A DNA stretch of 64,000 nt from Anaerosomatales bacterium (lineage in GTDB: Bacteria; Actinomycetota; Coriobacteriia; Anaerosomatales; SLCP01), in assembly GCA_029210645.1 (NCBI GenBank), contig JARGFT010000007.1, positions 55,297 to 119,296 of the forward strand. The letters run 5' to 3'. The position numbers and the translations under genes are program-made. Shown here in pieces: positions 9,390 through 35,758 of this stretch. Under the pieces are notes generated by a model. It had not been told where the DNA came from. It worked only from the letters and a program-made list of their open reading frames with translations, and made no database searches. The stretch's first letter is position 1; the number at the start of each line of letters is the position of its first letter.

Positions 9390-9482
9390 GCCCTTCCCGG
9401 GCGGATACGCATCACTCCGCCCGCACCGTCTAACACTGCCTCAGCGCCATGGTACGACATCCTCCGCGCAGGCAGCCCACGC

Positions 9483-10091
9483 TCACCGCTTCCGCCGGGA
9501 GGACCTCAAGTCGTCGAGGAGCACCGCCGCGAAGCGCTGGAAGCGCGCATCCGTATCCGAACCCGGTCGCACCGCAACGCACGAGTCCCCGAACCAGAGC
9601 TCGACGGCTGCCGTCATCTCGTACCGCGGCCCCTCTGTCGCAGCAACCGTTGCAGGGGGCGCTACCGGCGCCGGCTCTGGCTCAGGCTTAGGTCGGGGCG
9701 GCGCGGGAGACTCCCTGCGACGGCGGGGCGGGGGTACAGGAACCGGGATCGGTGGCTGTGGGACCGGGGTTCGCGGCCGCGGGACCGGAATCGGCACCTC
9801 CGAGACCGGCAGGTTTGCTTCGAGGCTCTGCAGCTCCTCCTCGAGTTTGAGCTCCGGCCACCGCTGGGCCACAGCGTCTTGCGTCTGCACCGGCGCGGGC
9901 GGCGGTGCAGCGGTGTAGTCGTCCAGGTGGGCCGTCCACCACGGCTCTGCCTTGACCGCCTCGGCAGGCTCGGGATTCAGTTCGCTGAGACCGTACCGCT
10001 TGATGAGCGCACGTACCCGAACAAACGCGACAAGACCCACGAGAACAAGCAGTACGAGCGATGCAGCCGGCGCGTAGGTCTCCAGGTTCAC
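9483..10091 (-). CDS. Membrane-anchored proline-rich protein of unknown function (part of the GTPase module)
   Basis: GTG start 3 nt after the GTPase stop. One N-terminal TM helix (AASLVLLVLVGLVAFV) followed by RVRALIKR (C-terminus predicted cytoplasmic), a roughly 100-aa Pro-rich linker and a roughly 50-aa C-terminal domain (GPRYEMTAAVELWFGDSCVAVRPG...). Confidence 0.55.
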   Translation of the reverse strand: MNLETYAPAASLVLLVLVGLVAFVRVRALIKRYGLSELNPEPAEAVKAEPWWTAHLDDYTAAPPPAPVQTQDAVAQRWPELKLEEELQSLEANLPVSEVPIPVPRPRTPVPQPPIPVPVPPPRRRRESPAPPRPKPEPEPAPVAPPATVAATEGPRYEMTAAVELWFGDSCVAVRPGSDTDARFQRFAAVLLDDLRSSRRKR

Positions 10092-10094
10092 CGG

Positions 10095-10610
10095 CTACTC
10101 CATGCTCTCCATGATGCGGTAGAGAAGCGCGAGGAGCACCTGCTTGACCGACTCCCTGTCTCGGGCGTCGACGGCGAGCACCTCGACGGATTCCTCGATG
10201 CCGAGCCGTTGGCGGAGCGCCGCGAGCCGGTCCGGCGAATCCACGCGGTTCGCGGCGATCACGAACGGTACCGACGACATGTTCCGGAAGAAGCTCACGA
10301 TCGCGGTCGCGTCCCCGATCGAGCTGTCGTCTGCGGCGTCGACAAGGACCACAAAACCGAGCATACCCTCGGAGAGCGTCTCCCACATGAACGAGAACCG
10401 CTCCTGGCCCGGCGTGCCGAAGATGTAGAGCACCACCTCATCCGAGATGGTGATGCGTCCGAAGTCCATCGCGACCGTAGTCTCGCCGCCTGCAGACGAG
10501 TCGGTGACGTCTCGCTCCGTGGAGAGCACGGTGATCTCGCTGACAGACTTGATGAACGTCGTCTTCCCCGCATTGAACGGACCGGTGACGACTATCTTCA
10601 CAGACTGCAT
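10095..10610 (-). CDS. Small Ras-like GTPase of the CvnD / MglA-like (COG2229-type) group
   Basis: 171 aa. P-loop GPFNAGKTT, switch-I TTVAMDFGRI, G3 FGTPGQERF (Thr instead of Asp, as in MglA/CvnD), G4 NRVD. Close overall pattern match to Streptomyces conservon CvnD proteins as I recall them. Confidence 0.8.
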   Translation of the reverse strand: MQSVKIVVTGPFNAGKTTFIKSVSEITVLSTERDVTDSSAGGETTVAMDFGRITISDEVVLYIFGTPGQERFSFMWETLSEGMLGFVVLVDAADDSSIGDATAIVSFFRNMSSVPFVIAANRVDSPDRLAALRQRLGIEESVEVLAVDARDRESVKQVLLALLYRIMESME

Positions 10611-10629
10611 GCGGCTGTCCTGTCCCCTG

Positions 10630-12387
10630 TTACAGCTTCTTCAGACCGTCGATGACCTTCATGACGAGCGCCTTGCTGACCGCCTCGTCCCTGCGAAGAC
10701 CGGCGATCTTCCCGGAATCGGGAATGATACCCACGTTGACCGCAGGCCGGCTTCCGCGCGCGCCCGTCAACGCGCCCATCTCGTCACTCATCGCACTCGA
10801 CAGGTCCGGCTCGAACTCGTCCTCGTCGGTCTCCTCAGCGGGCACGATCTCCGCCTGAGGCTCGAGCTCGTCGAGCGATTCGAGCAGGTCGCTGAGGTCC
10901 ACGACCCCCGTCGTCTCCTGTTCGAGCGTGATGGTGAGCTCGTATCCGGGCAGCTGGTCGGGTTCCGGTTCGGGCTCGGGCGCGTGCTCGGGCTCCGGTT
11001 CCGGTTCGTGCGCGGGTTCCGGTTCGGGCGCGGGTTCCGGTTCCGGCGCGGGCTGCCACTCGAACTCAGGCTCCGGCGCCGGCTCTTCTTCCACAAGCCC
11101 CTCTGCGGACTCGACAAACCGCTCCGGAAGCTCACCGATACCGAGCGACATGAGATCGCGCTCGAAGTCGGGCTGTGCTGTCTGCGGCTCGACGACATCG
11201 GCCGTCTCGGCAACGGGCTCCTCGGCAACGGGCTCCTCGGATGGGATGTCGACGTCCTCCGCACGTTCGAGGTCAGGCTCTGCCGGCACGTACTCGACGT
11301 GCGGGGTGACTATCGTGTCCAGCATCTCGGCAAACGAGGTGACATCGTCGGTGGTCGCGGTGGCCGAAGGGCCGGTCAGGAAGGTGGGCGCCTCGGGAGC
11401 GGGCCGGGCATCGGCCGGCGGCTCGGGCTCCGGTTCGGGTTCCGGCTCCGGCACGGGTTGCCACTCGAACTCGGGCTCTGGTTCGGGTTCTGGTTCGGGT
11501 TCCGGCTCGGGCTCCGGCCCGGGCTCGACCTCGGGTTCCGGCTTGGGCTCCGGCCCAGGCTCGACCTCGGGTTCCGGCTCGGGCTCGGGTTCGGGCTCGA
11601 CCTCGGGTTCCGGCTCGGCGGCGTACTCCCCGGCAGGAACCTCTGTCGGAAGCTTCATGAAGTCCTCTTCGACCGCGAACTCCAGCAGGCCGGCCGAGAA
11701 CAGACCGTAGAGGATGCGGGCAACTTCGAAGTCGGTGCGACCGGTGTCCCGGGCAAGCTCGGCGACCGAGCGAGTGCCGTCGACCAGCAGGAGCAGGCTC
11801 CACTCGACCGGCTTGAGCGAGATCTCGAACGTGCCCTCACCGGGGGCGGTCGCCATCTTGAAGATGACGTCCATCGAGGGGACCTTCTTGCGGATTCGCG
11901 CCCACTCGTCGAGACGGCGGCTCCCCTCCATGATCACGTTCTCTATCGAGACCGTGAGCCCGATGTCCTCGTCGACCACCTCGGGAAGGAGTTCGAAGTC
12001 GAACTCGCCATCCTCCCAGCGCATGAGATCGAAGATGGTGTCCTGTATCTGCTCCTGCACGAAGGCCTCGAGGACCTTCTCGGTGATGTAGCCCTCGTCG
12101 ACGAGCACCTGCCCGAGCCGTCGGCCGCCCTCGGGCTCTGCCGAGCGGATCTCAAGAGCCTTGCCGAGCGCGCTCGGCGTGATCTTGCGTGCCGCCACGA
12201 GCCGCTCGCCCAGCAGTTCGTGATGCCAGTTGGACTGCGCGAAGAACACCTCTCCGTCGCGGAACCACACTGCCCCAGCCGCATCTCCGGGTCCGGAGAT
12301 GCGCAGCACACCGGTCTTCCTGCTGAACGTGATCAGCTGGAAGACGTCGGGTAGGCTGAAATCCTTGAGACTGCCTCTGAGGGCCAT
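10630..12387 (-). CDS. PATAN (DUF4388) domain protein with T2SSE_N/MshEN-like repeat, winged-helix-like segment and long Pro-Glu repeat linkers
   Basis: N-terminus [32 protein letters not shown]...[13 protein letters not shown] is the DUF4388/PATAN signature. Residues 58-113 form two GspE-N-like repeats (second is [24 protein letters not shown]). Residues about 195-238 ([40 protein letters not shown]) are wHTH-like, as in DUF742/CvnC. Two PE-repeat tracts. Confidence 0.75.
10957..11085 (-). repeat. In-frame Pro-Glu low-complexity repeat (copy 2) containing [15 protein letters not shown]
   Basis: Encodes [42 protein letters not shown]. The DNA is degenerate GGYTCSGG-type hexamer repeats. Confidence 0.85.
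11416..11619 (-). repeat. In-frame Pro-Glu low-complexity repeat (copy 1) containing [15 protein letters not shown]
   Basis: Encodes [66 protein letters not shown]. It shares the FEWQP core with copy 2. Confidence 0.85.
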
Positions 12388-12435
12388 CGGTTCCGTCGGT
12401 GCCCTTCCCGGCCGGCTGGTGCGGCCGTTCGATTG

Positions 12436-13110
12436 CTAGCGAAGTATCTCAGCGATGGTATCGGCAGCAGCACGCATGTCGTAGAGCACAAGGCCGAGTT
12501 TGGCCTCCCGGCGCGCGAGGACGGTAAGCACCGCTCGACCGCCGACCTCGACAAGCAACACGTACCCATCCGCACCCTCGATGAACACCTGCGTCAGAGA
12601 GCTCCGACCGAGTTCGGCGGCAGCCCGCTCGCCGAGAGCGAGGATCGCTGCCGACATCGCACCGACCCGGTCCTCATGCATACCCTCGGGCAGCGCCGAG
12701 GCGATGATGAAGCCGTCCAGGCTGACCAGCGCTGCTGCCTCGATATCCGAAGCGTCCTCCATGAGCTCCTCGAGGGCGGTGCGTAGACGCGCCTCCCGGT
12801 TCGAGACTCTGCGGGGAGCGGCAGCAGGTGCTTCCGCGGGTGGCGGCGAGGCCTGGGCCTGAGGCGCAGGCGCTGGTGGCGTCGGCGCCGGAGCCTCGGG
12901 AGCTGGTGGCGCCGGAGCGGGCTCGGGCTGCACAGCAGATGGCTGCGGCGCCGAAGGCGGCGTGTCGGCCACCGGCGCGGCCTGCGGAGCAGGAGCCGGC
13001 GGCACTATCACTGGCGGGGCGGCCCCTTCGCCACCCTCATCGAGCATCTCATCGTCGATGTCGCCAAGCAGGTACTTGTCGATCCCCTCATCGGACACTG
13101 TCGATGCCAC
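12436..13110 (-). CDS. Roadblock/LC7 (MglB/CvnB-like) domain protein with N-terminal Pro/Ala-rich region
   Basis: The C-terminal roughly 115 aa, LEELMEDASDIEAAALVSLDGFIIASALPEGMHEDRVGAMSAAILALGERAAAELG...GYVLLVEVGGRAVLTVLARREAKLGLVLYDM, match the Roadblock/LC7 pattern. Residues about 28-100 are PAPAPQ-type low complexity. Start is uncertain (GTG 13110 abuts the SD; GTG 13098 or ATG 13047 are possible). Confidence 0.75.
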   Translation of the reverse strand: MASTVSDEGIDKYLLGDIDDEMLDEGGEGAAPPVIVPPAPAPQAAPVADTPPSAPQPSAVQPEPAPAPPAPEAPAPTPPAPAPQAQASPPPAEAPAAAPRRVSNREARLRTALEELMEDASDIEAAALVSLDGFIIASALPEGMHEDRVGAMSAAILALGERAAAELGRSSLTQVFIEGADGYVLLVEVGGRAVLTVLARREAKLGLVLYDMRAAADTIAEILR

Positions 13111-13246
13111 CTCCCCTTTCCCGTGAACCGCGCCTCGTCAACGGCGAATCCGAGCACGTGACGAACCGCGTCCCCTCCCCGCAAGTCTCTCACGAAGCAG
13201 TGGTCCCTACAACCGAGAAGCACCTCTACGCTGCGAAAACGCTGGT

Positions 13247-14923
13247 TCACACGACGACGCGCATGATCTCCTCGATCGACGTCAGCCCCATGCGCACCTT
13301 CTCGAACCCGTCGACCTTCAGCGTCTTCATGCCCTCCTCGATCGCCTGGGCCATCAGCTCGTCGGTCGACGCGTTCTCAACCGTCATGCGCTCCATCGTC
13401 TCGGACATCGTCATCACCTCATGGATACCCATGCGGCCGCGGTACCCGATATCGTTACACTTCCTGCACCCCTTGGCGCGATAGAGACGGGGCGGATTGC
13501 CCGGTTCGAACGGAAAACCGATACGGGCGAGTGCTTCCTCCTCGGGCACGTACTCCTCCTTGCAGTCCGGGCAGAGCCGCCTGGCCAGACGCTGCGCAAG
13601 GACGCACGTGATCGCCGATGCGGTCAGGAACGGTTCGATCCCCATCTCGGTGAGGCGCGTGACGGCCGAGGGGGCGTCGTTCGTGTGGAGCGTCGAAAGT
13701 ACGAGGTGGCCGGTGAGCGCCGCCTCGATGGCGATCGTCCCGGTCTCGGCGTCGCGGATCTCACCGATCATGACGGTATCGGGATCCTGTCGCAGGATCG
13801 AACGGAGTGCCGCCGCGAAGGACAGGCCCGCCTTCTCGTGCACCTGCACCTGGGAGAGCCCGTTGAGCCGGTACTCGACCGGGTCCTCGACGGTGATGAG
13901 GTTCGTTCGCACGTCGTTGGTCCGGTTGATCGCGGCGTAGAGCGTCGTCGACTTACCCGAGCCCGTCGGCCCGGTCACGAGGATCGCTCCGTACGGGAGG
14001 GAGAGCGCATCGAGCAGCCTCTGGAGCGGCTGCTCCAGGAAGCCGAGGTCCTCGAGGGACATCATGATGGAGTCCTTACGCAGCAGGCGCATGACCGCCA
14101 TCTCGCCGTGAACGAGCGGCAGCACCGCGACGCGGAAGTCGACCGCATGTCCGTCGAGCACCACGCCGAAGCGCCCGTCCTGCGGGATACGCTTCTCGGC
14201 GATGTCCATGCCGGCGGAGATCTTGAGCCGGCTGATCAGCTGCCGCTGCATCTTCTTGGGGCTCCGGAAGACCTCCTGGCACACGCCGTCGATGCGGAAC
14301 CGCACCCTGAGTTCGTGCTCGTGCGGCTCCAGGTAGATATCACCGGCACCCTGGCGGATGCCTTCGGTGACGATGAGGTTCATGAGCTTTGCGACAGGAG
14401 CGCTCTCGTCCTCGATATCCTCCTCGGCGGTCTCCTCCGACACTGTGACCGAGTCTTCGAGGTCGCCCACCATGCCGTCGACGTTGGCGTGAGCTGCTGC
14501 GAACTTGTCGATCGCCTGGACAAGGTCGCTCTCGGTGACCACGACCGGTCGGATCTCAAAGCCCGTGACGATCCTCAGGTCGTCGATGGCGATCATGTTC
14601 GCCGGGTCCGACATCGCAACCAGCAACTCGTCGTCCTCGATCTTGATCGGAAGGACGCTGTGTCGCCGAGCGAGGTCCGAGGAGAGATTGACGGCCGCGT
14701 TCGGGTCGATGTCGTAGCCGGGCAGGTCGACGAAGTCAAAGCCCAACTGCTCCGCGATGGCGCGCGCAACGGCAGTCTCGGATGCGTGACCGAGATCGTC
14801 GAGTGCGGCGGTCAGGCTCTTGCCCCCGCCAGCGGCTTCGATCGCCTCGGTGAGCTGCTCGGGTGTGATGACCCCTGCGCCGACCAACAGACGCCCGAGC
14901 CGTGCACTGCCCGCTGCACTCAT
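13247..14923 (-). CDS. pilB: Type IV pilus assembly ATPase PilB (GspE family), paralog 2
   Basis: 558 aa, roughly half the residues identical to paralog 1 by eye. GPTGSGKST, DPVEYR, VMIGEIRD, GHLVLSTLHTN, CPDC...CRKC. ATG overlaps the aroE stop (ATGA, 14920-14923). Confidence 0.9.
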   Translation of the reverse strand: MSAAGSARLGRLLVGAGVITPEQLTEAIEAAGGGKSLTAALDDLGHASETAVARAIAEQLGFDFVDLPGYDIDPNAAVNLSSDLARRHSVLPIKIEDDELLVAMSDPANMIAIDDLRIVTGFEIRPVVVTESDLVQAIDKFAAAHANVDGMVGDLEDSVTVSEETAEEDIEDESAPVAKLMNLIVTEGIRQGAGDIYLEPHEHELRVRFRIDGVCQEVFRSPKKMQRQLISRLKISAGMDIAEKRIPQDGRFGVVLDGHAVDFRVAVLPLVHGEMAVMRLLRKDSIMMSLEDLGFLEQPLQRLLDALSLPYGAILVTGPTGSGKSTTLYAAINRTNDVRTNLITVEDPVEYRLNGLSQVQVHEKAGLSFAAALRSILRQDPDTVMIGEIRDAETGTIAIEAALTGHLVLSTLHTNDAPSAVTRLTEMGIEPFLTASAITCVLAQRLARRLCPDCKEEYVPEEEALARIGFPFEPGNPPRLYRAKGCRKCNDIGYRGRMGIHEVMTMSETMERMTVENASTDELMAQAIEEGMKTLKVDGFEKVRMGLTSIEEIMRVVV

Positions 14924-15822
14924 GAACGCTCACCTCCTCCCGCGGAACGCAGTACGAGCTCCTCTTCGGCTGCACGGCGCATGACCTCGCGCGAGGATGT
15001 GCCGTGCGATTCTCCACACCAGATCTCCATCGCGGTCGCACCCTGAGCGACGAGCATCCCCAATCCGTCGACCGCGGTGGCTCCGACCGAGCGCGCCGCG
15101 ACCACGAGCGGGGTCGGCTCGGCACGGTAGATCATGTCGGCCACGATCTGGTTCGCACTCATCCAAGCAGCGGGGACCGGCGACGGGTCGCCCTCCTTCA
15201 TGCCGAGCGGAGTCGCGTTGACCACCAGGTCAGCCGCTGCGATCACCTCGCCGGCATCCTCGTCCAGAACCACGACGTCGACCGCTGTCTCCCGTGCGTG
15301 CGGGCGGGTGCGCTCTGCAAGCGCCTCGGCACTCGCCGGCGTCCGATTCACGATCGTCACCCTGCTTGCCTTGCCGAGCACCAGCGACACGAGCGCCGCA
15401 CCTGCGGCGCCTCCGGCCCCCACAAGCGCGACCGTCGCCCCCGCAGGATCGAAGTCCACGTCGGCTTTGAGTGAGTCCACGAGCCCGCGGCCGTCGGTGT
15501 TGTAGCCGATCAGGCGGCCGTCCACGCAGTGCACGGTGTTCACAGCGCCTGCCATCTGGGCGAGCATCGCGACCTCATCGCACAGATCGAGCATCACCTG
15601 CTTGTAGGGCATCGTCACGTTGAAGCCAACGAACGGAAGTACCCGTATCGCGCCGACCGCGCGGAGCAGGTCGGTCTCGTCGGCAACGGGGAGCGGGACA
15701 TAGACACAGTCGAAATCCGCCGACTCGTAGGCAGCGTTGTGCATCACCGGCGAGAGGCTCTGCTCCACCGGCCAGCCGATAATCCCCGCCAGACGTGTCC
15801 GTCCTGTGATGCGGCCGTTCAT
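14920..15822 (-). CDS. aroE: Shikimate dehydrogenase
   Basis: LAGIIGWPVEQSLSPVMHNAAYE...FVGFNVTMPYKQ...GAVNTV...GYNTDG...LVGAGGAAGA. Internal ATG at 15822 is preferred over the ORF-track start 15900. Confidence 0.9.
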   Translation of the reverse strand: MNGRITGRTRLAGIIGWPVEQSLSPVMHNAAYESADFDCVYVPLPVADETDLLRAVGAIRVLPFVGFNVTMPYKQVMLDLCDEVAMLAQMAGAVNTVHCVDGRLIGYNTDGRGLVDSLKADVDFDPAGATVALVGAGGAAGAALVSLVLGKASRVTIVNRTPASAEALAERTRPHARETAVDVVVLDEDAGEVIAAADLVVNATPLGMKEGDPSPVPAAWMSANQIVADMIYRAEPTPLVVAARSVGATAVDGLGMLVAQGATAMEIWCGESHGTSSREVMRRAAEEELVLRSAGGGERS

Positions 15823-23452: not shown

Positions 23453-24793
23453 TCACCTGCGTCCCGAAGGTCTCTCCTCCGTATCTTCGGGGTTACCTCC
23501 GGCTGCATGCCCTTCGGCGCCCGCATGACCCGGTCGCCAGAACGCTCCCCGCTCGATCCCATCGGGCAGGTACTGTTGCGCACGCCCCTCAGCGGGGCGG
23601 TCGTGCGGGTAGACGTAGCCGACTCCCCTACCCAGCGGCTTGGCCCCGGGATAGTGGCCGTCGCGCAGGTGGTTCGGCACCGCGCGAGCAGGGCCCTCGC
23701 GGACCTCGGCAAGCGCCCGGTCGATGGCGATGATCGAGGCATTGGACTTGGGAGCAAGCGCCATGTAGATGGCGGCCTGCACGAGGTTGATTCGGCACTC
23801 GGGCCACCCCACGAACTCGGCTGCCTTGACGGCTGCATGCGCGACAAGCAGTGCACGCGGGTCGGCATTGCCGACGTCCTCGGAGGCGAAGATGAGTATC
23901 CGCCTGGCGATGAACTTCGGGTCCTCTCCCCCGTGGATCATCCGTGCGAGCCAGTACACCGCAGCGTCGGGATCCGAGCCCCGCATCGACTTGATGAACG
24001 CCGAGATCACATCGTAGTGGACGTCGCCGGTCTTGTCGTAGGACAGCGTGCGCGTCGGGACGGCCGCACGTACCGCTTCCAGGTCGACCTTACGAGGAGC
24101 ACCCTCGGACGCAGGCGCTTCCGCTCCGGCAGCTGCGAACTCGAGGGTCGCGAGCGCGACCCGGGCATCGCCGCCGGCGAGCGTCACGAGCGCGTCCTCG
24201 GCAGGCCCGTCTAGCTCGACCGTCCCGCCCAGTCCCCGCTCGTCATGGACCGCCCTGCGGACGATCTCGCGGATGGCGTCATCGGCGAGCGGCGTGAGCT
24301 CGATGACGCGCGAGCGGCTAATGAGCGGCGCGTTCACCTCGAAGAACGGGTTTTCCGTGGTCGCACCAACGAGAACGACCAGGTTGTCCTCGACCGCATG
24401 AAGAAGCGCGTCCTGCTGGGACTTCGAGAAACGGTGGATCTCGTCGACGAACAGGATCGTGCGCTGGCCCGATTCGCCGAGACGGTGCCGCGCGCCCTCG
24501 ATAGCGGCGCGTATATCGGCCACCCCGGAGGTCACCGCCGAGACCTCGGCGAAGTACGCCCTGGTTGCGCCGGCGATGATGCGAGCGAGCGTGGTCTTAC
24601 CCGTGCCGGGCGGACCGTAGAGGATAAACGGCGAGAGGTCGTCGCGTTCGATGGCGCTGCGCAGCAACGTGCCGGGACCGACGGCGGCCTGCTGGCCGAC
24701 GAACTCGTCGAGCGAGCGGGGACGCATCCTCACCGCCAGCGGAGCACTCTGGTCCCGGGCGCGGTCGGCCTGCTCGTCGAAGAGCGAGTCCAC
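23453..24793 (-). CDS. rarA: Replication-associated recombination protein A (MgsA/RarA AAA+ ATPase)
   Basis: LAVRMRPRSLDEFVGQQ, LYGPPGTGKTTLARIIA, LFVDEIHRF, GATTENP, MgsA C-terminal HYDVISAFIKSMRGSDPDAA. Confidence 0.9.
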   Translation of the reverse strand: MDSLFDEQADRARDQSAPLAVRMRPRSLDEFVGQQAAVGPGTLLRSAIERDDLSPFILYGPPGTGKTTLARIIAGATRAYFAEVSAVTSGVADIRAAIEGARHRLGESGQRTILFVDEIHRFSKSQQDALLHAVEDNLVVLVGATTENPFFEVNAPLISRSRVIELTPLADDAIREIVRRAVHDERGLGGTVELDGPAEDALVTLAGGDARVALATLEFAAAGAEAPASEGAPRKVDLEAVRAAVPTRTLSYDKTGDVHYDVISAFIKSMRGSDPDAAVYWLARMIHGGEDPKFIARRILIFASEDVGNADPRALLVAHAAVKAAEFVGWPECRINLVQAAIYMALAPKSNASIIAIDRALAEVREGPARAVPNHLRDGHYPGAKPLGRGVGYVYPHDRPAEGRAQQYLPDGIERGAFWRPGHAGAEGHAAGGNPEDTEERPSGRR

Positions 24794-24796
24794 ACG

Positions 24797-29806: not shown

Positions 29807-32022
29807 CGGTGACGCTCCTTGCGCTTCTGGCTCGCCTCTCCCGGCAGCGCACGCGCCACTTCGAAGACGCCGTCGATGGCGCGAGCCCCGCTGATGATCG
29901 ACTTGAGCTGGTCCATGTTGCCGAGCTCGAAGAGGAATCGCATCGTCGAGATGCCCCCGCGATCGGTCGAGACATGTGCGGACAGCACGTTCACTCCCGC
30001 CTCGGCCAGCGTCGAGGACACCTCCTGCAACAGGCGCATCCGGTCGACTGCCTCGATGACGATCTCGACCTGGTACGTGGTCTCCGAGCCCTTGTCCCAC
30101 TCCACGTCGATGATGCGCTCCGGCGTGCGCAACAGGTCTGCGGCGTTGGCACAGTCCCGTCGATGCACCGACACGCCGCGCCCGCGCGTGACGAACCCGA
30201 CGATGTCATCACCGGGCACCGGATTGCAGCAGCGCGCGAGGCGCACGAGAACGTCGTCGATGCCTTTGACCTTCACGCCTCCGCCCTGGCGACGGCGCTT
30301 GGAGCGGGGTGGCGTCATCGGCGTGGTGAGTGGGAGGGTCTCCGGCTCGGGCTCCGGCGCGGCCTTCGGTGTCTCGGCAGCCATGAGCTTGAGGAGCTTG
30401 CCGGCGATCTGTTTCGCGGAGACCTTGCCGGCGCCGATGTGCGCGAGCAGGTCGTCGGATTCCTGGAAGTTCATCTCGGAGGCAACGGCATCGAGTGCGC
30501 GGTTCGCCGCCGGCGAGCTCATGCCGAGGCCGTGCTTGCGCATCACCTTGACGAGCACGTCGCGACCGCGCTGCAGATCGTCCTCCCGGCTCGCCTTGCT
30601 GAAGTAGCTGCGTATCTTGCTACGTGCCGAGGAGGTCTTGACGATGTTGAGCCAGTCCCGGCTCGGCCAGGCATTCTTGTTGGTCATAATCTCGACACGG
30701 TCGCCCATGTTGAGCTCGTAGCCGAGCGGGACGATGGAGCCGTTCACCTTCGCGCCGACGCAGTGGTGGCCCACCTCGGTATGGATCGCGTAGGCGAAGT
30801 CGATCGGGGTCGAGCCGCGGCGCAGCGACCGGACGTCGCCCTTGGGCGTGAAGACGAAGACCTCGTCTTCGAACAGGTCGATCTTGAGCGCCTCCATGAA
30901 CTCGCGCGGATCCTTGAGTTCGGTCTGCCACTCCAGCATCTGCCGCAGCCATGCAAGGCGCTCGTCGAAGCTCTCTTCGCCGCGCCCGCCCTCTTTGTAG
31001 CGCCAGTGCGCTGCGATCCCGTACTCGGCGGTGCGGTGCATCTCCTCGGTCCGTATCTGGATCTCGAGGGGACGGCCCGCCGGCCCGATGACGGTGGTGT
31101 GGAGCGACTGATACATGTTGAACTTGGGCATCGCCACGTAGTCTTTGAAGCGCCCGGGCACCGGCTTCCAGATGCTGTGCACCGTGCCGAGCGCGCCGTA
31201 GACGTCCTTGACCGAGTCCACGATGACGCGCAGCGCGATGAGGTCGTAGATCTCGCTGAAGTCCTTACCCTTCTGCGACATCTTCTGGTAGATGCTGTAA
31301 AGGTGTTTCGGCCGCCCCGAGATCTCGGCCTCGACACCGATCTCACGAAGCTCACTCTGAAGCTGGTCGATGACCTGGGCCAGATACGCTTCACGAGCCG
31401 CTCTGCTCTCAGCCACCATCTTCTGCACCTGGTGGAACTTGCGCGGCTCGAGGTAGTAGAAGGCGAGGTCTTCGAGTTCCCACTTGATGCTCGAGATGCC
31501 GAGGCGATGCGCGAGCGGCGCATAGATCTCCATGGTCTCGATCGCCTTGTCGCGACGGCGCTCCGGCGGTAGGGCCGAGAGCGTACGCATGTTGTGGAGC
31601 CGGTCGGCGAGCTTGATGAGGATCACCCGGATGTCTTTAGCCATCGCGATGAGCATCTTGCGCAGGTTCTGGCTCTGTGCCTCGGAGAGCGTCTCGAACT
31701 CGATTCGGCCGAGTTTCGTGACACCGTCGACCAGCTCGGCAACCTCGTCCCCGAACCGCTCTCGCACCTCGGCCAGCTCGTGCGGCGAGTCCTCGACGAC
31801 ATCGTGCAGGAGCGCGGCCTTGAGCGTTGAGGTGTCGAGGTGCAGCTCGGCGAGGATGAGGCAGACCTCGATGGGATGCTTGACGAAGGGCTCGCCCGAC
31901 TTGCGCGCCTGGCCCTCGTGGGCCGCCACAGCGAAGTCGTACGCCTCGTCCAGACCGGTCAGATCGGCGTCAGGGTTGTACTCCCTGACCTGTGCTTCGA
32001 TCTGTTGGATGGTAGCTGGCAC
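29803..32022 (-). CDS. relA: Bifunctional (p)ppGpp synthetase/hydrolase (RelA/SpoT homolog)
   Basis: 739 aa. HD domain (HPIEV...LHDVVED), synthetase (RFKDYVAMPKFNMYQSLHTTV), TGS, ACT-like C-terminus. Confidence 0.95.
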   Translation of the reverse strand: MPATIQQIEAQVREYNPDADLTGLDEAYDFAVAAHEGQARKSGEPFVKHPIEVCLILAELHLDTSTLKAALLHDVVEDSPHELAEVRERFGDEVAELVDGVTKLGRIEFETLSEAQSQNLRKMLIAMAKDIRVILIKLADRLHNMRTLSALPPERRRDKAIETMEIYAPLAHRLGISSIKWELEDLAFYYLEPRKFHQVQKMVAESRAAREAYLAQVIDQLQSELREIGVEAEISGRPKHLYSIYQKMSQKGKDFSEIYDLIALRVIVDSVKDVYGALGTVHSIWKPVPGRFKDYVAMPKFNMYQSLHTTVIGPAGRPLEIQIRTEEMHRTAEYGIAAHWRYKEGGRGEESFDERLAWLRQMLEWQTELKDPREFMEALKIDLFEDEVFVFTPKGDVRSLRRGSTPIDFAYAIHTEVGHHCVGAKVNGSIVPLGYELNMGDRVEIMTNKNAWPSRDWLNIVKTSSARSKIRSYFSKASREDDLQRGRDVLVKVMRKHGLGMSSPAANRALDAVASEMNFQESDDLLAHIGAGKVSAKQIAGKLLKLMAAETPKAAPEPEPETLPLTTPMTPPRSKRRRQGGGVKVKGIDDVLVRLARCCNPVPGDDIVGFVTRGRGVSVHRRDCANAADLLRTPERIIDVEWDKGSETTYQVEIVIEAVDRMRLLQEVSSTLAEAGVNVLSAHVSTDRGGISTMRFLFELGNMDQLKSIISGARAIDGVFEVARALPGEASQKRKERHR

Positions 32023-32041
32023 CGGCGCTCTCTCCTCGCCC

Positions 32042-35000
32042 TTAGGCCTGTGATGGCAGGATAGGGCGGTTGAACCGGGCGAGCAACTGGGCGGGAGTCG
32101 CGCTGAGCACCCACTCGCGGAACTCCTCGAACTCCGCGATCTCCTCCAGCCCCTCTGCGTAGCGTACCGAGGAGGACAGCTCGACCTTACCGTTCGACTC
32201 GAGGACCGTCAGTCTCCGGTACGCCCCGTGCCCCTCGCCCTCCACAAGGCCCAGCTCTCTGAACACACCGATGCCGGCGGAGACACCGCGGTCGTTCATC
32301 GCCGAGGAGTGCCGCCGCGCCACCACGCGCTCGGCGAGCTCCGCATTGGTGATCTCGAATCCCGGACCCGCCGTCTGCTGCAGCTCCCTCAGTGCCCGGT
32401 AGAGCGCCGCCAGGTCCTCTCTCGAGGGCGCCACGCTTGCCAGCACCATCTCGTTGACCTTGCCGTCCCGCGGACCAAACAGCAGGTGGATGCGCGCCAG
32501 CGCGCCGTCGCGACCCGAACGACCACACATCTGGTTGAACTCGATGTCGTTGAAGGGCAGGTGGTAGAGGACGACGTGGCGGATGTCCGGGATGTTGACC
32601 CCCTCGCCGAACGCGCTCGTCGCAACGACGACGCTGACCTCACCGGCCCGAAACGCACGCTCGACCGCATTGCGTGCCGAGCGCGTCAGCCCGCCGTTGT
32701 AGAACGCGACGCGCATCGCGATAGCGGGCGACTTCTTGCGCAGCATGCGCGCGAGGCGGACCGACTGGTCGCGAGAGTTCACGTAGACGATGATCTTCTC
32801 GCCTCGCGAAGCGAGGGACGCGAGGTACGCATCCTTGTCGCCCAGACCGCGCCGGTCCTCGACCACAAGGTTCTCGCGCACCGTCGGGTCGGTCACCACC
32901 GAGGTGATCCCCAAGCTCTCGACGATCGCCGCGGCCGTCGCGTCGCCTGCGGTCGCGGTCACCGCAAGCACAGCCGGGTCACCGAGCGCCGCGAAGGTCT
33001 CGCCCAGGCGAGCGTACGCAGGCCGGTGCCCCGCCCGGGCGGTCCCGACGTGGTGTGCCTCATCGACCACGGCGAAGCGCACGCGACCCGACTCGGCGAA
33101 CCGGCCCGCGTGGAACGCGAGGAACTCCGGGGTGGTGAGCACGATGTCGACCCGACCGTCTGCTAGTCCGGCGAACGCGTCGTCGCGCACGGCGGGCGCG
33201 GACTCGCCGGTGAGCGTGCACACGCCGACGCCGACCCGGGCCATCACCTCTTCGAGGTGGAACGCCTGATCGGCGACGAGTGCCCGCAGCGGGAAGACGA
33301 AGACCGAGGCACCGCCCCCCTTGAGCGCGGTGCGTGCAGCGTGCAGGTGGAAGATGAGCGACTTGCCGCGCCCGGTCGCCATGACGGTCAGGCAGCGATG
33401 GCCGGCCGCCAGCTCATCGAGCGCGCGCTGCTGCGCGTCGTGCAACGTGCCCTCCCCGATGAACTCACGCACGAGCTCGCGGTCGAGGTCATGGTCGGAG
33501 AGCGCGACAAGCTCCTGCTTGCGGACCGCGATCGACTCCTCCTCAGCGACCGCGGTGGCATCCGCGCGGCGGGTCACGAGTACGTTCACGCCGTAGGAGC
33601 GTCCGCCCTCGCCCCCGGTCACGTCTGCGACCTCGACGTCGTACTCGACGCCCGCGTCGATCACCGGGGCGAGCGCTCCGGCCAGCCGGCGGTTGAAGAA
33701 GCCGACCTGTCCCCCGTGCGCCTCGTGCAGGGCGATCGCGTTGGCGTCGTGAGGGTTGTCGGGCTGCCGCACCACCCGCAACGGCGTGCCGGGCGAGAGC
33801 CGCGCGACAACGTCCTGCCGGCCCTCGAAGGTCACACCCGCAAGCTTGGTGTGGAAGTAGTCGGCCTCCTCGATGCCCGCGTACTCCTCGCGCGCGAGAA
33901 TCTCGTCGGCCCGTGCGAAAAGGTCCTCCACGAGCTCCTCGGCGGGCGAGTAACCCGCGTGCTCGTGGACGGCGACCTCCCGTACGAGCATCTGGACGCG
34001 CTTGCGGCCCCTCCACTCGTCGGCCTGCACCTCGAACGCGAGATCGACGGCCGCATCGCAGAGCGCGAGGCGCTCGATGTCGGGGCAGCGAAACGCGATC
34101 GCCGGGACGGAGTCGGCTCCGTCGTACGCCGCGAAGCGGAGGTGGTTCGAGGCCGCACCGACTCGCTCGCGGCCGGACATGAAGACCCCGGCCACGCTGA
34201 AGAGCGGCCGCGAATTACCTGCACCGAACGGCTCGAGCGCCGCGACCTCGGCCGCCAGGTCCAGACCGACGTCACCCAGTTCGATGTCGGCATCGACGAG
34301 ACGCTCGACAGTGAAGAGCTCGGCTGGAAGGCCGGCAAGATGGCCGAGGAACGCGCTCCTGAACTCGCCGATACGGTCGGCGGCGATGGTCAGGCCGACC
34401 GCCGCCGCGTGACCCCCGAACCGGACGAGCATCTCCGAGGTCGAAGAAACAGCGCGGTAGAGATCCACCGCTCCCACCGAGCGACCCGAACCCCTCGCCT
34501 CCCCGTCTTCGACGGTGAGCAGGATCACGGGTATCCCGAAGCGCTGCACGAGCCGGGAGGCAACGATGCCCTTCACGCCTTCGTGCCAGCCCTCCCCCGC
34601 CAAGACGAGGCCGCGGTCGCCCTCGGCATACTCGCGCTCGGCCAGCGCGAGCGCAGCCACGGTGAGGTCTTGCTCGACCGACTGCCGCATACGGTTGTGG
34701 AGGTCGAGTTCGCGCGCGAGCGCATCGGCTCGGACCGGGTCCTCAGTCATCAGCAGCTCGAGCGCGATCGCGGGGTCGGCCATGCGCCCTGCGGCGTTCA
34801 AACGCGGTGCGAGCTGGAATGCGACTGAGTCCGAGTCGGCGACGGGAAGCTTGGTCGAGGACACCGCGGCGAGAGCGGCAATCCCGGCCCTGGGTTCGCG
34901 GCGGACGCGGGCAAGGCCGTCGGCCACAAGCGCACGATTCTCGCCGAACAGTGGCACGATATCGGCGACGGTTCCCAGCATCGCGAGGTCGGTGAGTTCG

Positions 35001-35686
35001 CGCCAGACATCCGGCCTACCGAGGAGGGCGCCCGTCGCCTGCACGAGCTTGAGCGCCACACCGGCTCCCGAGAGGTCGCAGGAGAGGCATCGAAGGTCGA
35101 GCTTGGGATTGGCGACGGGGACGCCCTGCGGGACGGCGTCGCCGGGCTCGTGATGGTCGGTGATGATGACGTCGATGCCTGCGAGTTTGAGGTCGGCCAC
35201 CTCGGGACCTCCCGAAATGCCGCAGTCCACGGTGACGACGAGATCGGGAGCCATCCCGCGCAGCCGCTCCACCGACGCAGGGGTCAGACCGTAGCCCTCG
35301 CGGAAGCGGTGTGGCACCGTGGCCGTCACCCGCCCCTCGAGAAGCCGGATCCCGGTCGCCGCGAGAGCCGCCGAGGAGATGCCGTCGAGGTCGAAGTCCC
35401 CGAACACCACGATCTGCTCGCCCGAACCGATCGCATCGGCAAGCCGTCTCGCGGCATCCGACATCCCCGGGATGACGTCCGGAGAGAGCCAGTCCCGCGC
35501 GAGATCCGGTTCGAGGAAGCGTCTCGCGTCGTCGGCAGTGGTGATACCCCGACCCAGAAGGATGCGCGCGACGACAGGTGACACCCCGACCTCTGCCACC
35601 AGGCGGTCGAGGGCGGCGGCGTCTACCGGAACGGGCCGCCAGGCACGCGAGCGACAACTCCATCCCCTGTCCTGTTCTGCCATCAT
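32042..35686 (-). CDS. recJ: RecJ 5-3 ssDNA exonuclease fused to a HIRAN domain and a RecQ-like superfamily-2 helicase
   Basis: aa 1-570: DHH motifs (FGDFDLDG, TVDCG, IITDHH), DHHA1 (GGHAAAVG), OB-like domain. aa about 610-700: HIRAN-like (KLAGVTFEGRQ...NPHDANAIAL). aa about 745-1075: helicase motifs ATGRGKS, VVDEAHHV, VTATA, QMCGRSGRDG. Confidence 0.85.
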   Translation of the reverse strand: MMAEQDRGWSCRSRAWRPVPVDAAALDRLVAEVGVSPVVARILLGRGITTADDARRFLEPDLARDWLSPDVIPGMSDAARRLADAIGSGEQIVVFGDFDLDGISSAALAATGIRLLEGRVTATVPHRFREGYGLTPASVERLRGMAPDLVVTVDCGISGGPEVADLKLAGIDVIITDHHEPGDAVPQGVPVANPKLDLRCLSCDLSGAGVALKLVQATGALLGRPDVWRELTDLAMLGTVADIVPLFGENRALVADGLARVRREPRAGIAALAAVSSTKLPVADSDSVAFQLAPRLNAAGRMADPAIALELLMTEDPVRADALARELDLHNRMRQSVEQDLTVAALALAEREYAEGDRGLVLAGEGWHEGVKGIVASRLVQRFGIPVILLTVEDGEARGSGRSVGAVDLYRAVSSTSEMLVRFGGHAAAVGLTIAADRIGEFRSAFLGHLAGLPAELFTVERLVDADIELGDVGLDLAAEVAALEPFGAGNSRPLFSVAGVFMSGRERVGAASNHLRFAAYDGADSVPAIAFRCPDIERLALCDAAVDLAFEVQADEWRGRKRVQMLVREVAVHEHAGYSPAEELVEDLFARADEILAREEYAGIEEADYFHTKLAGVTFEGRQDVVARLSPGTPLRVVRQPDNPHDANAIALHEAHGGQVGFFNRRLAGALAPVIDAGVEYDVEVADVTGGEGGRSYGVNVLVTRRADATAVAEEESIAVRKQELVALSDHDLDRELVREFIGEGTLHDAQQRALDELAAGHRCLTVMATGRGKSLIFHLHAARTALKGGGASVFVFPLRALVADQAFHLEEVMARVGVGVCTLTGESAPAVRDDAFAGLADGRVDIVLTTPEFLAFHAGRFAESGRVRFAVVDEAHHVGTARAGHRPAYARLGETFAALGDPAVLAVTATAGDATAAAIVESLGITSVVTDPTVRENLVVEDRRGLGDKDAYLASLASRGEKIIVYVNSRDQSVRLARMLRKKSPAIAMRVAFYNGGLTRSARNAVERAFRAGEVSVVVATSAFGEGVNIPDIRHVVLYHLPFNDIEFNQMCGRSGRDGALARIHLLFGPRDGKVNEMVLASVAPSREDLAALYRALRELQQTAGPGFEITNAELAERVVARRHSSAMNDRGVSAGIGVFRELGLVEGEGHGAYRRLTVLESNGKVELSSSVRYAEGLEEIAEFEEFREWVLSATPAQLLARFNRPILPSQA

Positions 35687-35758
35687 CTCCGCATCCTAGC
35701 AGGGAGGGCCGACACGCACGTGTCGGCCCTCCGGGTCTCACTTCAGGTGTGGGCGGCG

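What the first reader, a model, noticed from the sequence alone, without database searches (positions are those of the whole stretch)
32042..35686. Single 1214-aa polypeptide fusing RecJ exonuclease, a HIRAN domain and a RecQ-like helicase
Seen in sequence: one uninterrupted ORF sits at the conserved recJ position (secDF-recJ-relA).
- Residues 1-570 (35686..33977) carry the DHH/DHHA1 motifs of RecJ.
- Residues about 610-700 (33859..33587) have the HIRAN-like KLAGVTFEGRQ...NPHDANAI pattern.
- Residues about 745-1075 (33454..32462) have helicase motifs I (ATGRGKS), II (DEAH), III (TAT) and VI (QMCGRSGRDG), closest to RecQ.

Established knowledge: RecQ helicase and RecJ nuclease act together in RecFOR-pathway end and gap processing. 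HIRAN domains bind 3-OH DNA ends at stalled forks (HLTF).

Inference: this is a covalent RecQ-RecJ resection machine with a fork or 3-end sensor. I do not know how widespread this architecture is, so its novelty is uncertain.
Basis: partly seen in the sequence, partly recalled or inferred. Interest (0 to 1): 0.65.

Follow-up and report, generated by a model that had tools for sequence, protein, structure and literature searches.

The report
RecJ nuclease fused to RecQ-like helicase
The organism's housekeeping recJ gene really does encode one 1214-residue protein joining a RecJ DNA exonuclease, a HIRAN DNA-end-binding domain and a RecQ-like helicase, but this uncharacterised architecture is widespread in Coriobacteriia (including gut genera) and many Bacillota, where databases label it simply "RecJ".

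Summary
ORF 32042..35686 (-) is uninterrupted and encodes DHH, DHHA1, RecJ_OB, HIRAN, DEAD, Helicase_C and a winged-helix tail. All six named domains score above Pfam's cutoffs, and all catalytic motifs are intact. It is not an assembly artefact: hundreds of independent assemblies carry the same fusion in the same secDF-recJ-relA position.

It is not rare. A scan of GTDB species genomes gave at least 591 hits to the family-specific helicase. All 80 loci inspected are RecJ-helicase fusions, including cultured Olsenella, Parafannyhessea, Collinsella and Gordonibacter. The full architecture also occurs in Thermincola potens JR, Phosphitispora and Peptococcaceae. HIRAN has been lost in Collinsella, Gordonibacter, Raoultibacter and an Eggerthella MAG.

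The helicase is RecQ-like but fails RecQ membership: it scores below the family cutoffs, has no Zn finger or HRDC, and has a degenerate aromatic loop.

The RecJ and helicase halves co-diverge (r = 0.97), which fits one ancient fusion. No paper found describes it.

The most likely function, inferred and not shown, is a single-chain helicase-nuclease for RecFOR-type gap, end or fork processing, with HIRAN as a 3'-end targeting module.

A by-product: Pfam PF10141, the C-terminal domain of long RecJ, looks like a decayed remnant of this helicase.

The parts
32042..35686 (-). Whole gene: RecJ-HIRAN-RecQ-like helicase-winged-helix tail, 1214 aa plus stop codon
33977..35581 (-). RecJ 5'-3' ssDNA exonuclease module, aa 36-570: DHH 91-239, DHHA1 359-446, RecJ_OB 464-569. 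Motifs DFDLD97-101, D154, DHH177-179, D242 and GGH424-426 are intact.
   Evidence: TIGR00644 scores 440 bits, above the 396.9 cutoff. Pfam domains. Motifs are conserved in every full-length member tabulated.
33851..33976 (-). Linker, aa 571-612. It is predicted helical with low confidence and is conserved among close relatives (PAAELVEDLFARADEILAREEYAGIEDA).
   Evidence: alignment; AF2 model pLDDT 54-69 in this stretch
33563..33856 (-). HIRAN domain, aa about 611-708. The predicted fold is a beta-rich unit with one helix. F620, H646 and D647 correspond to HLTF Y72, Y93 and D94.
   Evidence: Pfam PF08797 scores 40.8 bits, above the 24.7 cutoff. It aligns to solved HLTF HIRAN structures with E 7.5e-7. 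F620 and D647 are invariant. Secondary structure.
32882..33478 (-). Helicase RecA lobe 1, aa about 737-935: motif 0 (Q752), Walker A TGRGKS 771-776, Ia PLRAL, II DEAH 875-878, III TAT 910-912. The aromatic-rich loop is degenerate (VGTARAGHRPAY).
32492..32881 (-). Helicase RecA lobe 2, aa about 936-1065: motif V TSAFGEGVN 1023-1031 and motif VI QMCGRSGRDG 1052-1061.
32045..32491 (-). Family-specific tail, aa 1066-1214: helical hairpin, winged helix, second helical hairpin, then the C-terminal motif RFNRPILP. It has no cysteines. It is remotely related to the C-terminal half of Pfam PF10141.
   Evidence: AF2 models. Only generic winged-helix fold matches. PF10141 hits. Cysteine count.

Best explanation
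This is the organism's housekeeping recJ gene. In Coriobacteriia and in a large part of the Bacillota (Thermincola, Phosphitispora, Peptococcaceae and Peptococcia, other Clostridia) recJ encodes a single polypeptide. It has an active RecJ 5'-3' ssDNA exonuclease, usually a HIRAN domain, an ATP-driven RecQ-like SF2 helicase, and a winged-helix tail.

Shown: the architecture, the intact motifs, the conservation, and inheritance of the parts as one unit.

Inferred: the helicase, with the 3'-5' polarity typical of the RecQ clade, moves along one strand and peels off the complementary strand 5'-end first. That strand is fed to the tethered RecJ. Unwinding and 5'-strand degradation therefore advance together and leave 3' ssDNA for RecFOR and RecA. 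This is the job that separate RecQ and RecJ proteins do in E. coli at gaps, ends and blocked forks.

Also inferred: HIRAN binds a free 3'-OH ssDNA end, such as a primer terminus at a gap or stalled fork or the 3' tail being generated. It serves to target or anchor the enzyme and is accessory rather than essential.
For: Architecture and motif integrity.

RecQ-family cores are the nearest sequences and folds: 4tmu at E 8.5e-36, and Foldseek E about 1e-22 with roughly 500 aligned columns.

HIRAN pocket residues are conserved: and PMC4666394 read.

Housekeeping synteny, with a tightly packed secF-[fusion]-relA arrangement.

Breadth:
- at least 591 species-genome hits, with all 80 inspected being fusions;
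- Thermincola, Clostridia, Peptococcaceae and Phosphitispora.

The RecJ and helicase halves co-diverge (r = 0.968, n = 361). The helicase half is more conserved than RecJ between phyla (0.44 against 0.35), which points to purifying selection on an active helicase.

Apparent stand-alone HIRAN-helicase genes turned out to be broken fusions.

HIRAN is accessory:
- it is lost in Collinsella, Gordonibacter, Eggerthella sp. and Raoultibacter;
- it is retained, at 53% identity, in the one dead-helicase lineage measured (P0236), where the helicase is only 29% identical.

The polarity logic and the RecQ+RecJ partnership come from my own knowledge of the E. coli RecF pathway, not from a tool result.
Against: There is no biochemical, genetic or expression evidence for any member.

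The helicase lacks features that RecQ uses for coupling and strand separation: the aromatic-rich loop residues, the Zn subdomain, and a demonstrable RQC-type hairpin. Its polarity, and whether it unwinds duplex or only translocates, are therefore unknown.

Several lineages have let the helicase decay while keeping RecJ, so the helicase activity is dispensable in some organisms.

The spatial arrangement of RecJ relative to the helicase was not modelled.

Whether these genomes also carry a separate recQ could not be checked.
Confidence: 0.62

Rival explanations
1. The helicase is a motor that serves RecJ rather than a duplex-unwinding enzyme. It would translocate on ssDNA to clear SSB or secondary structure, or to feed the 5' strand, and so raise RecJ processivity. 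It would not be a RecQ-type helicase that opens duplex DNA.
For: The aromatic-rich loop is degenerate, there is no Zn subdomain, and the tail gives only generic winged-helix matches. The helicase can decay in some lineages without loss of RecJ.
Against: All ATPase and helicase motifs are strictly conserved, and the helicase half is more conserved than RecJ. The overall fold, including a winged helix after the core, superposes on RecQ catalytic cores over about 500 columns.
Confidence: 0.2
2. It is an HLTF-like fork remodeller. HIRAN captures the nascent leading-strand 3' end, the motor drives fork regression, and RecJ trims the regressed or lagging strand. The primary role would then be fork reversal rather than resection.
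For: HIRAN joined to an SF2 motor is the HLTF/Rad5 logic. The pocket residues are conserved. rarA/mgsA lies about 7 kb away in the window, which is weak support.
Against: The motor is RecQ-like, not a SNF2 dsDNA translocase. HIRAN has been lost in several genera while the RecJ-helicase fusion persists, so HIRAN-dependent remodelling cannot be the core function.
Confidence: 0.1
3. It is a defence or mobile-element helicase-nuclease, related to the RecQ-like DpdF or PsyrT proteins or to phage HIRAN modules, and not a repair enzyme.
For: PADLOC DpdF scores 190 bits and PsyrT 175 bits on the helicase core. The literature derives HIRAN from phage or selfish-element replication modules (PMC6222260).
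Against: The housekeeping position secDF-recJ-relA is conserved across two phyla. No Dpd or PsyrA partner genes were seen in the neighbourhood. Phage and plasmid collections hold no such cassette, only RecQ-core matches at 37% identity or less. Composition is uniform, and the two halves co-diverge in a vertical pattern.
Confidence: 0.03
4. It is an artefact: a frameshift, a mis-assembly or a chimeric contig has joined separate recJ and helicase genes.
For: A few related loci are split by a stop codon or a frameshift: L008, L033, L057, L082 and L083.
Against: Hundreds of independent assemblies, including genomes of cultured isolates, carry one ORF. The splits fall at different points, inside domains, in sequences that are 99.5% identical, so it is the splits that are the lesions. 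A related-strain contig crosses both junctions without gaps.
Confidence: 0.01

Closest known systems
Bacterial RecJ (TIGR00644; T. thermophilus and D. radiodurans structures)
   Same: The N-terminal 570 aa form a full-length RecJ core with the OB domain and all DHH and DHHA1 catalytic motifs. It scores above the equivalog cutoff and sits in the same genomic slot, secDF-recJ-relA.
   Different: It carries 640 extra C-terminal residues: HIRAN, an SF2 helicase and a winged-helix tail.
RecQ helicase (E. coli and C. sakazakii RecQ, 1oyw and 4tmu) with its RecF-pathway partner RecJ
   Same: RecQ is the best sequence and fold match for the two RecA lobes. Motifs 0 to VI are present and a winged helix follows the core. 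The functional pairing with RecJ is made covalent here.
   Different: The score is below the RecQ family cutoffs: 160.5 against 219.8, and 163.9 against 640.2. There is no Zn-binding cysteine cluster, and no RQC, RecQ_Zn_bind or HRDC hit. The tryptophan and phenylalanine of the aromatic-rich loop are replaced. About 30% identity.
HLTF / Rad5 (HIRAN domain plus SNF2 motor)
   Same: A HIRAN domain sits next to an SF2 ATPase motor. The pocket residues that correspond to HLTF Y72, Y93 and D94 are conserved as F620, H646 and D647.
   Different: The motor is RecQ-like rather than SNF2, there is no RING domain, the protein is bacterial, and it is attached to an exonuclease.
Helicase-nuclease fusions: WRN (DnaQ-type exonuclease plus RecQ helicase), Dna2, RecB/AddA/AdnAB, ExoDinG
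   Same: One polypeptide combines a DNA helicase with a nuclease for end or fork processing. WRN is the closest in logic, being an exonuclease joined to a RecQ-family core. ExoDinG also occurs in Coriobacteriales and Eggerthellales (PMC12345164).
   Different: The nuclease here is a DHH-family 5'-3' exonuclease. WRN and ExoDinG use a 3'-5' DnaQ fold, and RecB, AddA and Dna2 use a PD-(D/E)XK fold. The domain order and the HIRAN insertion are specific to this family.
Long RecJ with the ssDNA-exonuc_C domain (Pfam PF10141)
   Same: The tail, and in one member the end of helicase lobe 2 as well, matches PF10141 in a constant register. Two members score above the gathering cutoff: P0320 at 33.7 bits and P0319 at 29.9 bits, against 26.4.
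   Different: The window protein's own tail scores only 12.4 bits. Long RecJ proteins have no helicase lobes.
RecQ-like defence helicases DpdF and PsyrT
   Same: The helicase core scores 175-190 bits against their PADLOC models.
   Different: Only the core matches. There are no partner genes, the gene context is housekeeping, and the gene is inherited vertically.

Membership tests
RecJ (bacterial ssDNA-specific 5'-3' exonuclease) | Full-length match to the RecJ equivalog model above its curated cutoff | tested here: met
   TIGR00644 scores 440.1 bits against a cutoff of 396.9, aa 36-570 on model positions 2-545 of 546.
RecJ (bacterial ssDNA-specific 5'-3' exonuclease) | DHH-family catalytic motifs (DxD, D, DHH, D) and the DHHA1 GGH motif | tested here: met
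   DFDLD97-101, D154, DHH177-179, D242 and GGH424-426 are present and conserved in every full-length member tabulated.
RecJ (bacterial ssDNA-specific 5'-3' exonuclease) | OB-fold domain after DHHA1 | tested here: met
   PF17768 RecJ_OB scores 77.2 bits, aa 464-569.
RecJ (bacterial ssDNA-specific 5'-3' exonuclease) | 5'-3' exonuclease activity on ssDNA | not testable with these tools
   This needs a biochemical assay.
RecQ helicase family | SF2 core with motifs 0, I, Ia, II (DExH), III, V and VI | tested here: met
   Q752, TGRGKS, PLRAL, DEAH, TAT, TSAFGEGVN and QMCGRSGRDG are present. DEAD and Helicase_C score above their cutoffs.
RecQ helicase family | Score above the curated RecQ family or equivalog cutoffs | tested here: not met
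   TIGR00614 recQ_fam scores 160.5 against 219.8. TIGR01389 recQ scores 163.9 against 640.2. Only model positions 3-362 of 591 align.
RecQ helicase family | RecQ-C region with a four-cysteine Zn-binding subdomain | tested here: not met
   The window protein has no cysteines in aa 1062-1214. No column has cysteine in 20% or more of 409 members. There is no RecQ_Zn_bind or RQC Pfam hit, and none in the precomputed domain lists of about 235 homologs.
RecQ helicase family | Winged-helix domain after the core | tested here: inconclusive
   A winged helix is predicted. The whole module aligns to RecQ cores over about 500 columns. Modelled alone, though, the tail matches only generic winged-helix proteins, with a best E of 0.02.
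RecQ helicase family | Aromatic-rich loop between motifs II and III | tested here: not met
   The loop reads HHVGTARAGHRPAY, against RecQ's HCISQWGHDFRPEY. Only the R..Y pair is kept.
RecQ helicase family | 3'-5' DNA unwinding | not testable with these tools
   This needs a biochemical assay.
HIRAN domain (PF08797) | Match above the Pfam gathering score | tested here: met
   40.8 bits against 24.7. Cultured relatives score 50.5-58.7 bits.
HIRAN domain (PF08797) | Conserved pocket residues that bind a 3' ssDNA end (HLTF Y72, Y93, D94) | tested here: met
   The segment aligns to HLTF HIRAN at E 7.5e-7, with NPHD aligned to NPYD. F620 and D647 are invariant. The role of Y72 and Y93 is taken from PMC4666394. 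The role of D94, and the F620=Y72 match made by counting residues, rest on my own knowledge.
HIRAN domain (PF08797) | Beta-barrel fold with flanking helices | tested here: inconclusive
   The AF2 secondary structure shows about six strands and one long helix, at pLDDT about 85-90. No fold search was made on the isolated domain.
Dpd / PsyrTA defence systems | RecQ-like helicase encoded together with the system's partner genes (DpdA-K, or PsyrA) | tested here: not met
   Only the helicase core matches. The neighbours that were identified are secD, secF, relA, hisS, aspS, tgt and queA.

The most novel reading that the evidence does not exclude
A single-chain RecJ-(HIRAN)-RecQ-like helicase is an ancient, vertically inherited form of recJ shared by Coriobacteriia and part of the Bacillota. 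In those organisms it supplies both activities of the RecQ+RecJ presynaptic step.

The so far unexplained C-terminal domain of long Bacillus-type RecJ (Pfam PF10141) would then be the decayed remnant of the helicase's second RecA lobe plus its winged-helix tail. On this reading a large part of Bacillota RecJ proteins descend from a helicase-nuclease fusion.
Probability: 0.35. Interest if true: 0.7.

Novelty: new variant of a known kind. Interest (0 to 1): 0.5.

Why it matters
RecQ and RecJ are textbook partners, but how unwinding and 5'-strand degradation are physically coupled is still argued from mixtures of separate proteins. A natural covalent RecJ-helicase gives a defined single-chain system for biochemistry and cryo-EM. 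It occurs in cultured anaerobes (Olsenella, Parafannyhessea, Collinsella, Gordonibacter, Thermincola).

It is also a housekeeping bacterial context for HIRAN, a domain studied almost only in eukaryotic HLTF and Rad5. The HIRAN-plus and HIRAN-minus lineages, and the lineages with a dead helicase, act as natural deletion mutants.

On the practical side, genome annotation hides the helicase by calling these proteins 'RecJ'. That affects repair-pathway inventories of gut Coriobacteriia.

If the PF10141 link holds, it also explains the origin of the C-terminal domain of Bacillus-type RecJ.

Tried and rejected
1. Assembly or frameshift artefact. Rejected.

2. Ancestrally separate HIRAN-helicase genes next to recJ.
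- P0287 and P0286 looked like such genes.
- Their loci are 99.5% identical. One has an in-frame stop inside RecJ_OB and the other a frameshift inside HIRAN, so both are broken fusions.
- The other 'stand-alone' representatives are short, or sit on short contigs.

3. The tail as an RQC-type RecQ winged helix. Modelled alone, it gives only generic winged-helix matches, none at E of 0.001 or better.

4. A mobile-element origin for the cassette. Phage and plasmid collections give only RecQ-core matches.

5. A defence system. Only the helicase core matches, and there are no partner genes.

6. Literature. Seven full-text searches combined RecJ with HIRAN, RecQ, fusion protein, domain fusion, Rosetta, Coriobacteriia or Thermincola, or combined HIRAN with prokaryotic, bacterial or fused. 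None found a paper describing the fusion (and 43 for HIRAN residues). The Kile et al. 2015 paper was not held.

7. Read-level check. Only assembled contigs of related strains from volcano metagenomes were available, with no raw reads of this strain and no RNA runs.

8. A stand-alone recQ elsewhere in the genome. No other helicase was seen among the window ORFs that I annotated, but not every ORF was scanned.

9. A full-length model showing RecJ relative to the helicase was not made.

Full report
**Observation**

It runs from 32042 to 35686 on the minus strand, has an ATG start and encodes 1214 codons without a stop.

Pfam places six domains in order, all above their curated cutoffs:
- DHH, aa 91-239
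- DHHA1, aa 359-446
- RecJ_OB, aa 464-569
- HIRAN, aa 613-680 (40.8 bits against a cutoff of 24.7)
- DEAD, aa 751-914
- Helicase_C, aa 954-1061

The N-terminal 570 residues pass NCBI's RecJ equivalog cutoff: TIGR00644 scores 440 bits against 396.9. Base composition is uniform across the gene.

The identified neighbours are aspS, hisS, relA, then the fusion, then secF, secD, tgt and queA, all on the same strand. The fusion's stop codon lies 19 nt before the relA start, with a GAGGAG sequence in between. Its own start lies about 72 nt after the secF stop. So the gene sits in the classical recJ slot.

**Not an artefact**

- A whole-protein search found more than 120 protein clusters at 62-96% identity. 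Most are 1,200-1,243 aa long, a few are partial, and all but one list the same six Pfam domains. The named ones come from Anaerosomatales, Coriobacteriia or unclassified Actinomycetota MAGs, plus one labelled Clostridiales, and are called 'RecJ'.
- A 65%-identical relative on a 2.8 Mb contig has the same synteny.
- Public runs hold only related strains, from volcano metagenomes. One contig at about 93% identity spans 31900-34264 with 170 substitutions and no gaps, so the frame stays open across both domain junctions.

**How widespread the fusion is**

I searched the C-terminal 640 residues against 1.84 billion cluster representatives. This gave 658 representatives at E of 1e-30 or better.

I then built segment HMMs from the family alignment and classified the best 150 representatives:
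- about 50 are full RecJ-HIRAN-helicase-tail fusions, with the C-terminal module down to 33% identity;
- about 30 are RecJ-helicase-tail without HIRAN;
- the rest are mostly fragments.

A scan of one genome per GTDB species used two family-specific peptide patterns. I inspected the 80 best loci. Every gene not cut by a contig end lies in a single RecJ-...-helicase-tail ORF, except three with apparent frameshifts.

These loci include cultured Olsenella porci, Parafannyhessea umbonata, Gordonibacter pamelaeae, Collinsella massiliensis and other Collinsella isolates, as well as Raoultibacter and Eggerthella MAGs.

Pfam confirms that HIRAN is present in Olsenella and Parafannyhessea. It is absent in Gordonibacter, Collinsella and Eggerthella sp..

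The full architecture also occurs in Bacillota. It is found in Thermincola potens JR and T. ferriacetica (1233 aa; WP_013120088.1, UniProt D5XEJ8), in Clostridia MAGs, and in Phosphitispora sp. and Peptococcaceae and Peptococcia MAGs. Of 115 new proteins returned by the search with a Bacillota-labelled member, 102 have the full architecture.

Some loci carry labels such as Agathobacter, Bacteroidaceae or Treponemataceae. Their sequences are Collinsella-like, so they are probably mis-binned contigs.

**Stand-alone versions**

Two apparent stand-alone genes, P0287 (HIRAN-helicase) and P0286 (helicase), sit immediately after recJ and before relA. Their loci are 99.5% identical. One has an in-frame stop inside RecJ_OB and the other a frameshift inside HIRAN. 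Both are therefore lesions or assembly errors in a fused gene. I found no convincing ancestrally separate form.

**One unit, under selection**

Across 361 full-length members, identity to the window protein in the RecJ half and in the helicase half correlates at r = 0.968. Between phyla the helicase half is the more conserved of the two, at 0.44 against 0.35. This fits one ancient fusion inherited as a unit, with purifying selection on the helicase.

RecJ's catalytic motifs are intact in every full-length member tabulated. The helicase motifs TGRGKS, DEAHH, TAT, TSAFGEG and QxxGRxGRDG are intact in the window protein and in all the full-length species-locus genes tabulated.

Six distant representatives have lost the ATPase motifs while keeping RecJ, and four of those six also keep HIRAN. 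In P0236, HIRAN is 53% identical to the window's HIRAN while the helicase is only 29% identical.

**What the helicase is**

The nearest solved sequences are the catalytic cores of C. sakazakii and E. coli RecQ (E 8.5e-36 and 2.3e-34), followed by RECQ4, WRN, RECQ5, BLM and RECQ1. Only the two RecA lobes align.

An AlphaFold2 model of aa 575-1214 has pLDDT 85 and pTM 0.68. Its top fold matches are RecQ-family cores, at E about 1e-22 with roughly 500 aligned columns.

The helicase nevertheless fails RecQ membership:
- It scores below both curated cutoffs.
- It has no RecQ_Zn_bind, RQC or HRDC hit.
- The window protein has no cysteines after motif VI, and no cysteine column is conserved across 409 members.
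- The aromatic-rich loop is degenerate.

RecQ-like defence helicases score comparably on the core: DpdF at 190 bits and PsyrT at 175 bits. The accurate label is therefore a distinct RecQ-like clade. Phage and plasmid collections hold only RecQ-core matches, with no HIRAN-helicase-tail cassette.

**HIRAN**

The segment aligns to the solved HLTF HIRAN domains at E 7.5e-7, with NPHDANAI lined up against NPYDKNAI. HLTF's ssDNA cavity is bordered by Y72 and Y93 (PMC4666394). By the alignment and by counting residues, these correspond to F620 and H646, and D647 corresponds to D94. F620 and D647 are invariant in the family alignment. The 3'-OH-contacting role of D94 is from my own knowledge.

**Tail**

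Residues 1066-1214 are predicted to form a helical hairpin, a winged helix and a second helical hairpin. Modelled alone, the tail gives only generic winged-helix matches, with a best E of 0.02. It ends in a family-wide NRPIxP motif whose function is unknown.

**Mechanism (inferred)**

RecQ-clade helicases move 3'-5' and RecJ degrades ssDNA 5'-3'. Tethered together, a helicase tracking one strand would displace the complementary strand 5'-end first, straight into RecJ. Unwinding and degradation would then move in the same direction and leave a 3' ssDNA tail or an enlarged gap for RecFOR and RecA. This is the known division of labour between E. coli RecQ and RecJ (my own knowledge), made covalent here.

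HIRAN most plausibly targets or anchors the enzyme at a free 3' end, at a gap or at a stalled fork. It is lost in several genera and kept where the helicase is dead, which marks it as an accessory targeting module that works with RecJ independently of the ATPase.

None of this has been tested experimentally.

**By-product: PF10141**

The tail matches Pfam PF10141 (ssDNA-exonuc_C), the C-terminal domain of long RecJ proteins, repeatedly and in a constant register (profile positions about 93-191).
- The window protein and several relatives score below threshold.
- P0320, a full fusion, scores 33.7 bits, above the 26.4 gathering cutoff.
- P0319 scores 29.9 bits. There the match covers profile positions 37-199 and reaches back into helicase lobe 2.

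Bacillota also show a graded series:
- full fusions of about 1,200 aa;
- HIRAN-less forms of 1,063-1,095 aa;
- proteins of 877-895 aa that keep only lobe 2 and the tail, with the DEAD lobe deleted;
- proteins of 822-841 aa in which Pfam finds at most a sub-threshold Helicase_C trace, while the family HMM still detects lobe 2.

This suggests that PF10141 is a vestige of the helicase. Two caveats apply. I could not compare directly with a PF10141-only RecJ such as the B. subtilis protein. The PF10141 seed alignment may also itself contain decayed fusions.

**Novelty and verdict**

The sequences have been public for years and are auto-annotated as 'RecJ'. Seven full-text literature searches found no description of the fusion (one search was for HIRAN residues). 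The nearest item is a paper on ExoDinG, another helicase-exonuclease fusion, which also occurs in Coriobacteriales.

Helicase-nuclease fusions are a known kind (RecB, AddA, AdnAB, Dna2, WRN, ExoDinG). A DHH-family RecJ joined to a RecQ-like helicase with an inserted HIRAN domain is an uncharacterised variant of that kind. The window's protein is an ordinary member of a large family.

Interest is moderate. The finding is real, mechanistically attractive and experimentally tractable, but it is neither rare nor surprising in principle.

Noticed in passing
window 32045-32491 (tail); proteins P0319, P0320, P0310-P0317, P0363: Pfam PF10141 (ssDNA-exonuc_C, the C-terminal domain of long RecJ) matches the family's tail. 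In P0319 it also matches the end of helicase lobe 2. Two members score above the Pfam cutoff. Bacillota show a graded decay series running from the full fusion down to proteins in which Pfam finds little beyond RecJ. PF10141 may therefore be a vestigial helicase.
   Followed up: partly
proteins P0236, P0242, P0248, P0250, P0264, P0267: These distant lineages keep intact RecJ motifs but have destroyed Walker A, DEAH and motif VI, so the helicase is a pseudo-enzyme. Four of the six also keep a well-conserved HIRAN. The source organism of the HIRAN-keeping group, P0236 and its relatives, is unknown.
   Followed up: partly
loci L050, L053, L054, L059, L061, L063, L064, L074, L076 compared with L027, L041: HIRAN is absent from the fusion in Collinsella, Gordonibacter, Raoultibacter, Aveggerthella and Eggerthella sp. 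It is present in Olsenella and Parafannyhessea (Atopobiaceae) and in the environmental lineages. This amounts to a natural domain-deletion series.
   Followed up: yes
window 32054-32077 (aa 1204-1211): The extreme C-terminus carries a motif conserved across both phyla, [RK]xNRPIxP (RFNRPILP in the window protein). It has no known partner and could be a protein-interaction peptide.
   Followed up: no
window 35703-35732 (-): A perfect 13-bp GC-rich hairpin with a 4-nt loop lies between the secF stop and the fusion's start codon. The 72-nt stretch folds at -36.7 kcal/mol with z = -4.0, and no U-tract follows. It might be a terminator, an attenuator or an mRNA-processing element. Its conservation in relatives was not checked.
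   Followed up: partly
window 23456-24796 (-): A RarA/MgsA-type AAA+ ATPase gene (MgsA_C, AAA, RuvB_N), whose product is a replication-fork-associated recombination factor, lies about 7 kb from the fusion on the same strand, beyond relA, hisS and aspS.
   Followed up: no
window 7716-14929 (-): Two paralogous T2SSE/PilB-like secretion ATPase genes (575 and 560 aa, each with an MshEN domain) flank a 601-aa DUF4388 protein. This looks like a type IV pilus or secretion-related cluster.
   Followed up: no
protein P0318 (1856 aa, on a 6.15 Mb contig): This is an odd relative. The family HMMs find three tandem RecJ cores and the family tail, and the precomputed Pfam list adds a Toprim domain.
   Followed up: no
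loci L008, L033, L057, L082, L083: The fusion gene is split by a frameshift or an in-frame stop at different points, inside domains. These are probably assembly errors, given long-read or low-coverage assemblies, or recent pseudogenes. Automated gene calls then produce spurious 'stand-alone' helicases.
   Followed up: yes
loci L026, L035, L038, L058, L080: These contigs are labelled Acutalibacteraceae, Agathobacter rectalis, Bacteroidaceae, Acidaminococcaceae and Treponemataceae ('cleanbin' isolates). They carry Coriobacteriia-type fusion genes at about the same identity as Collinsella and its relatives, so they are probably mis-binned contigs.
   Followed up: no
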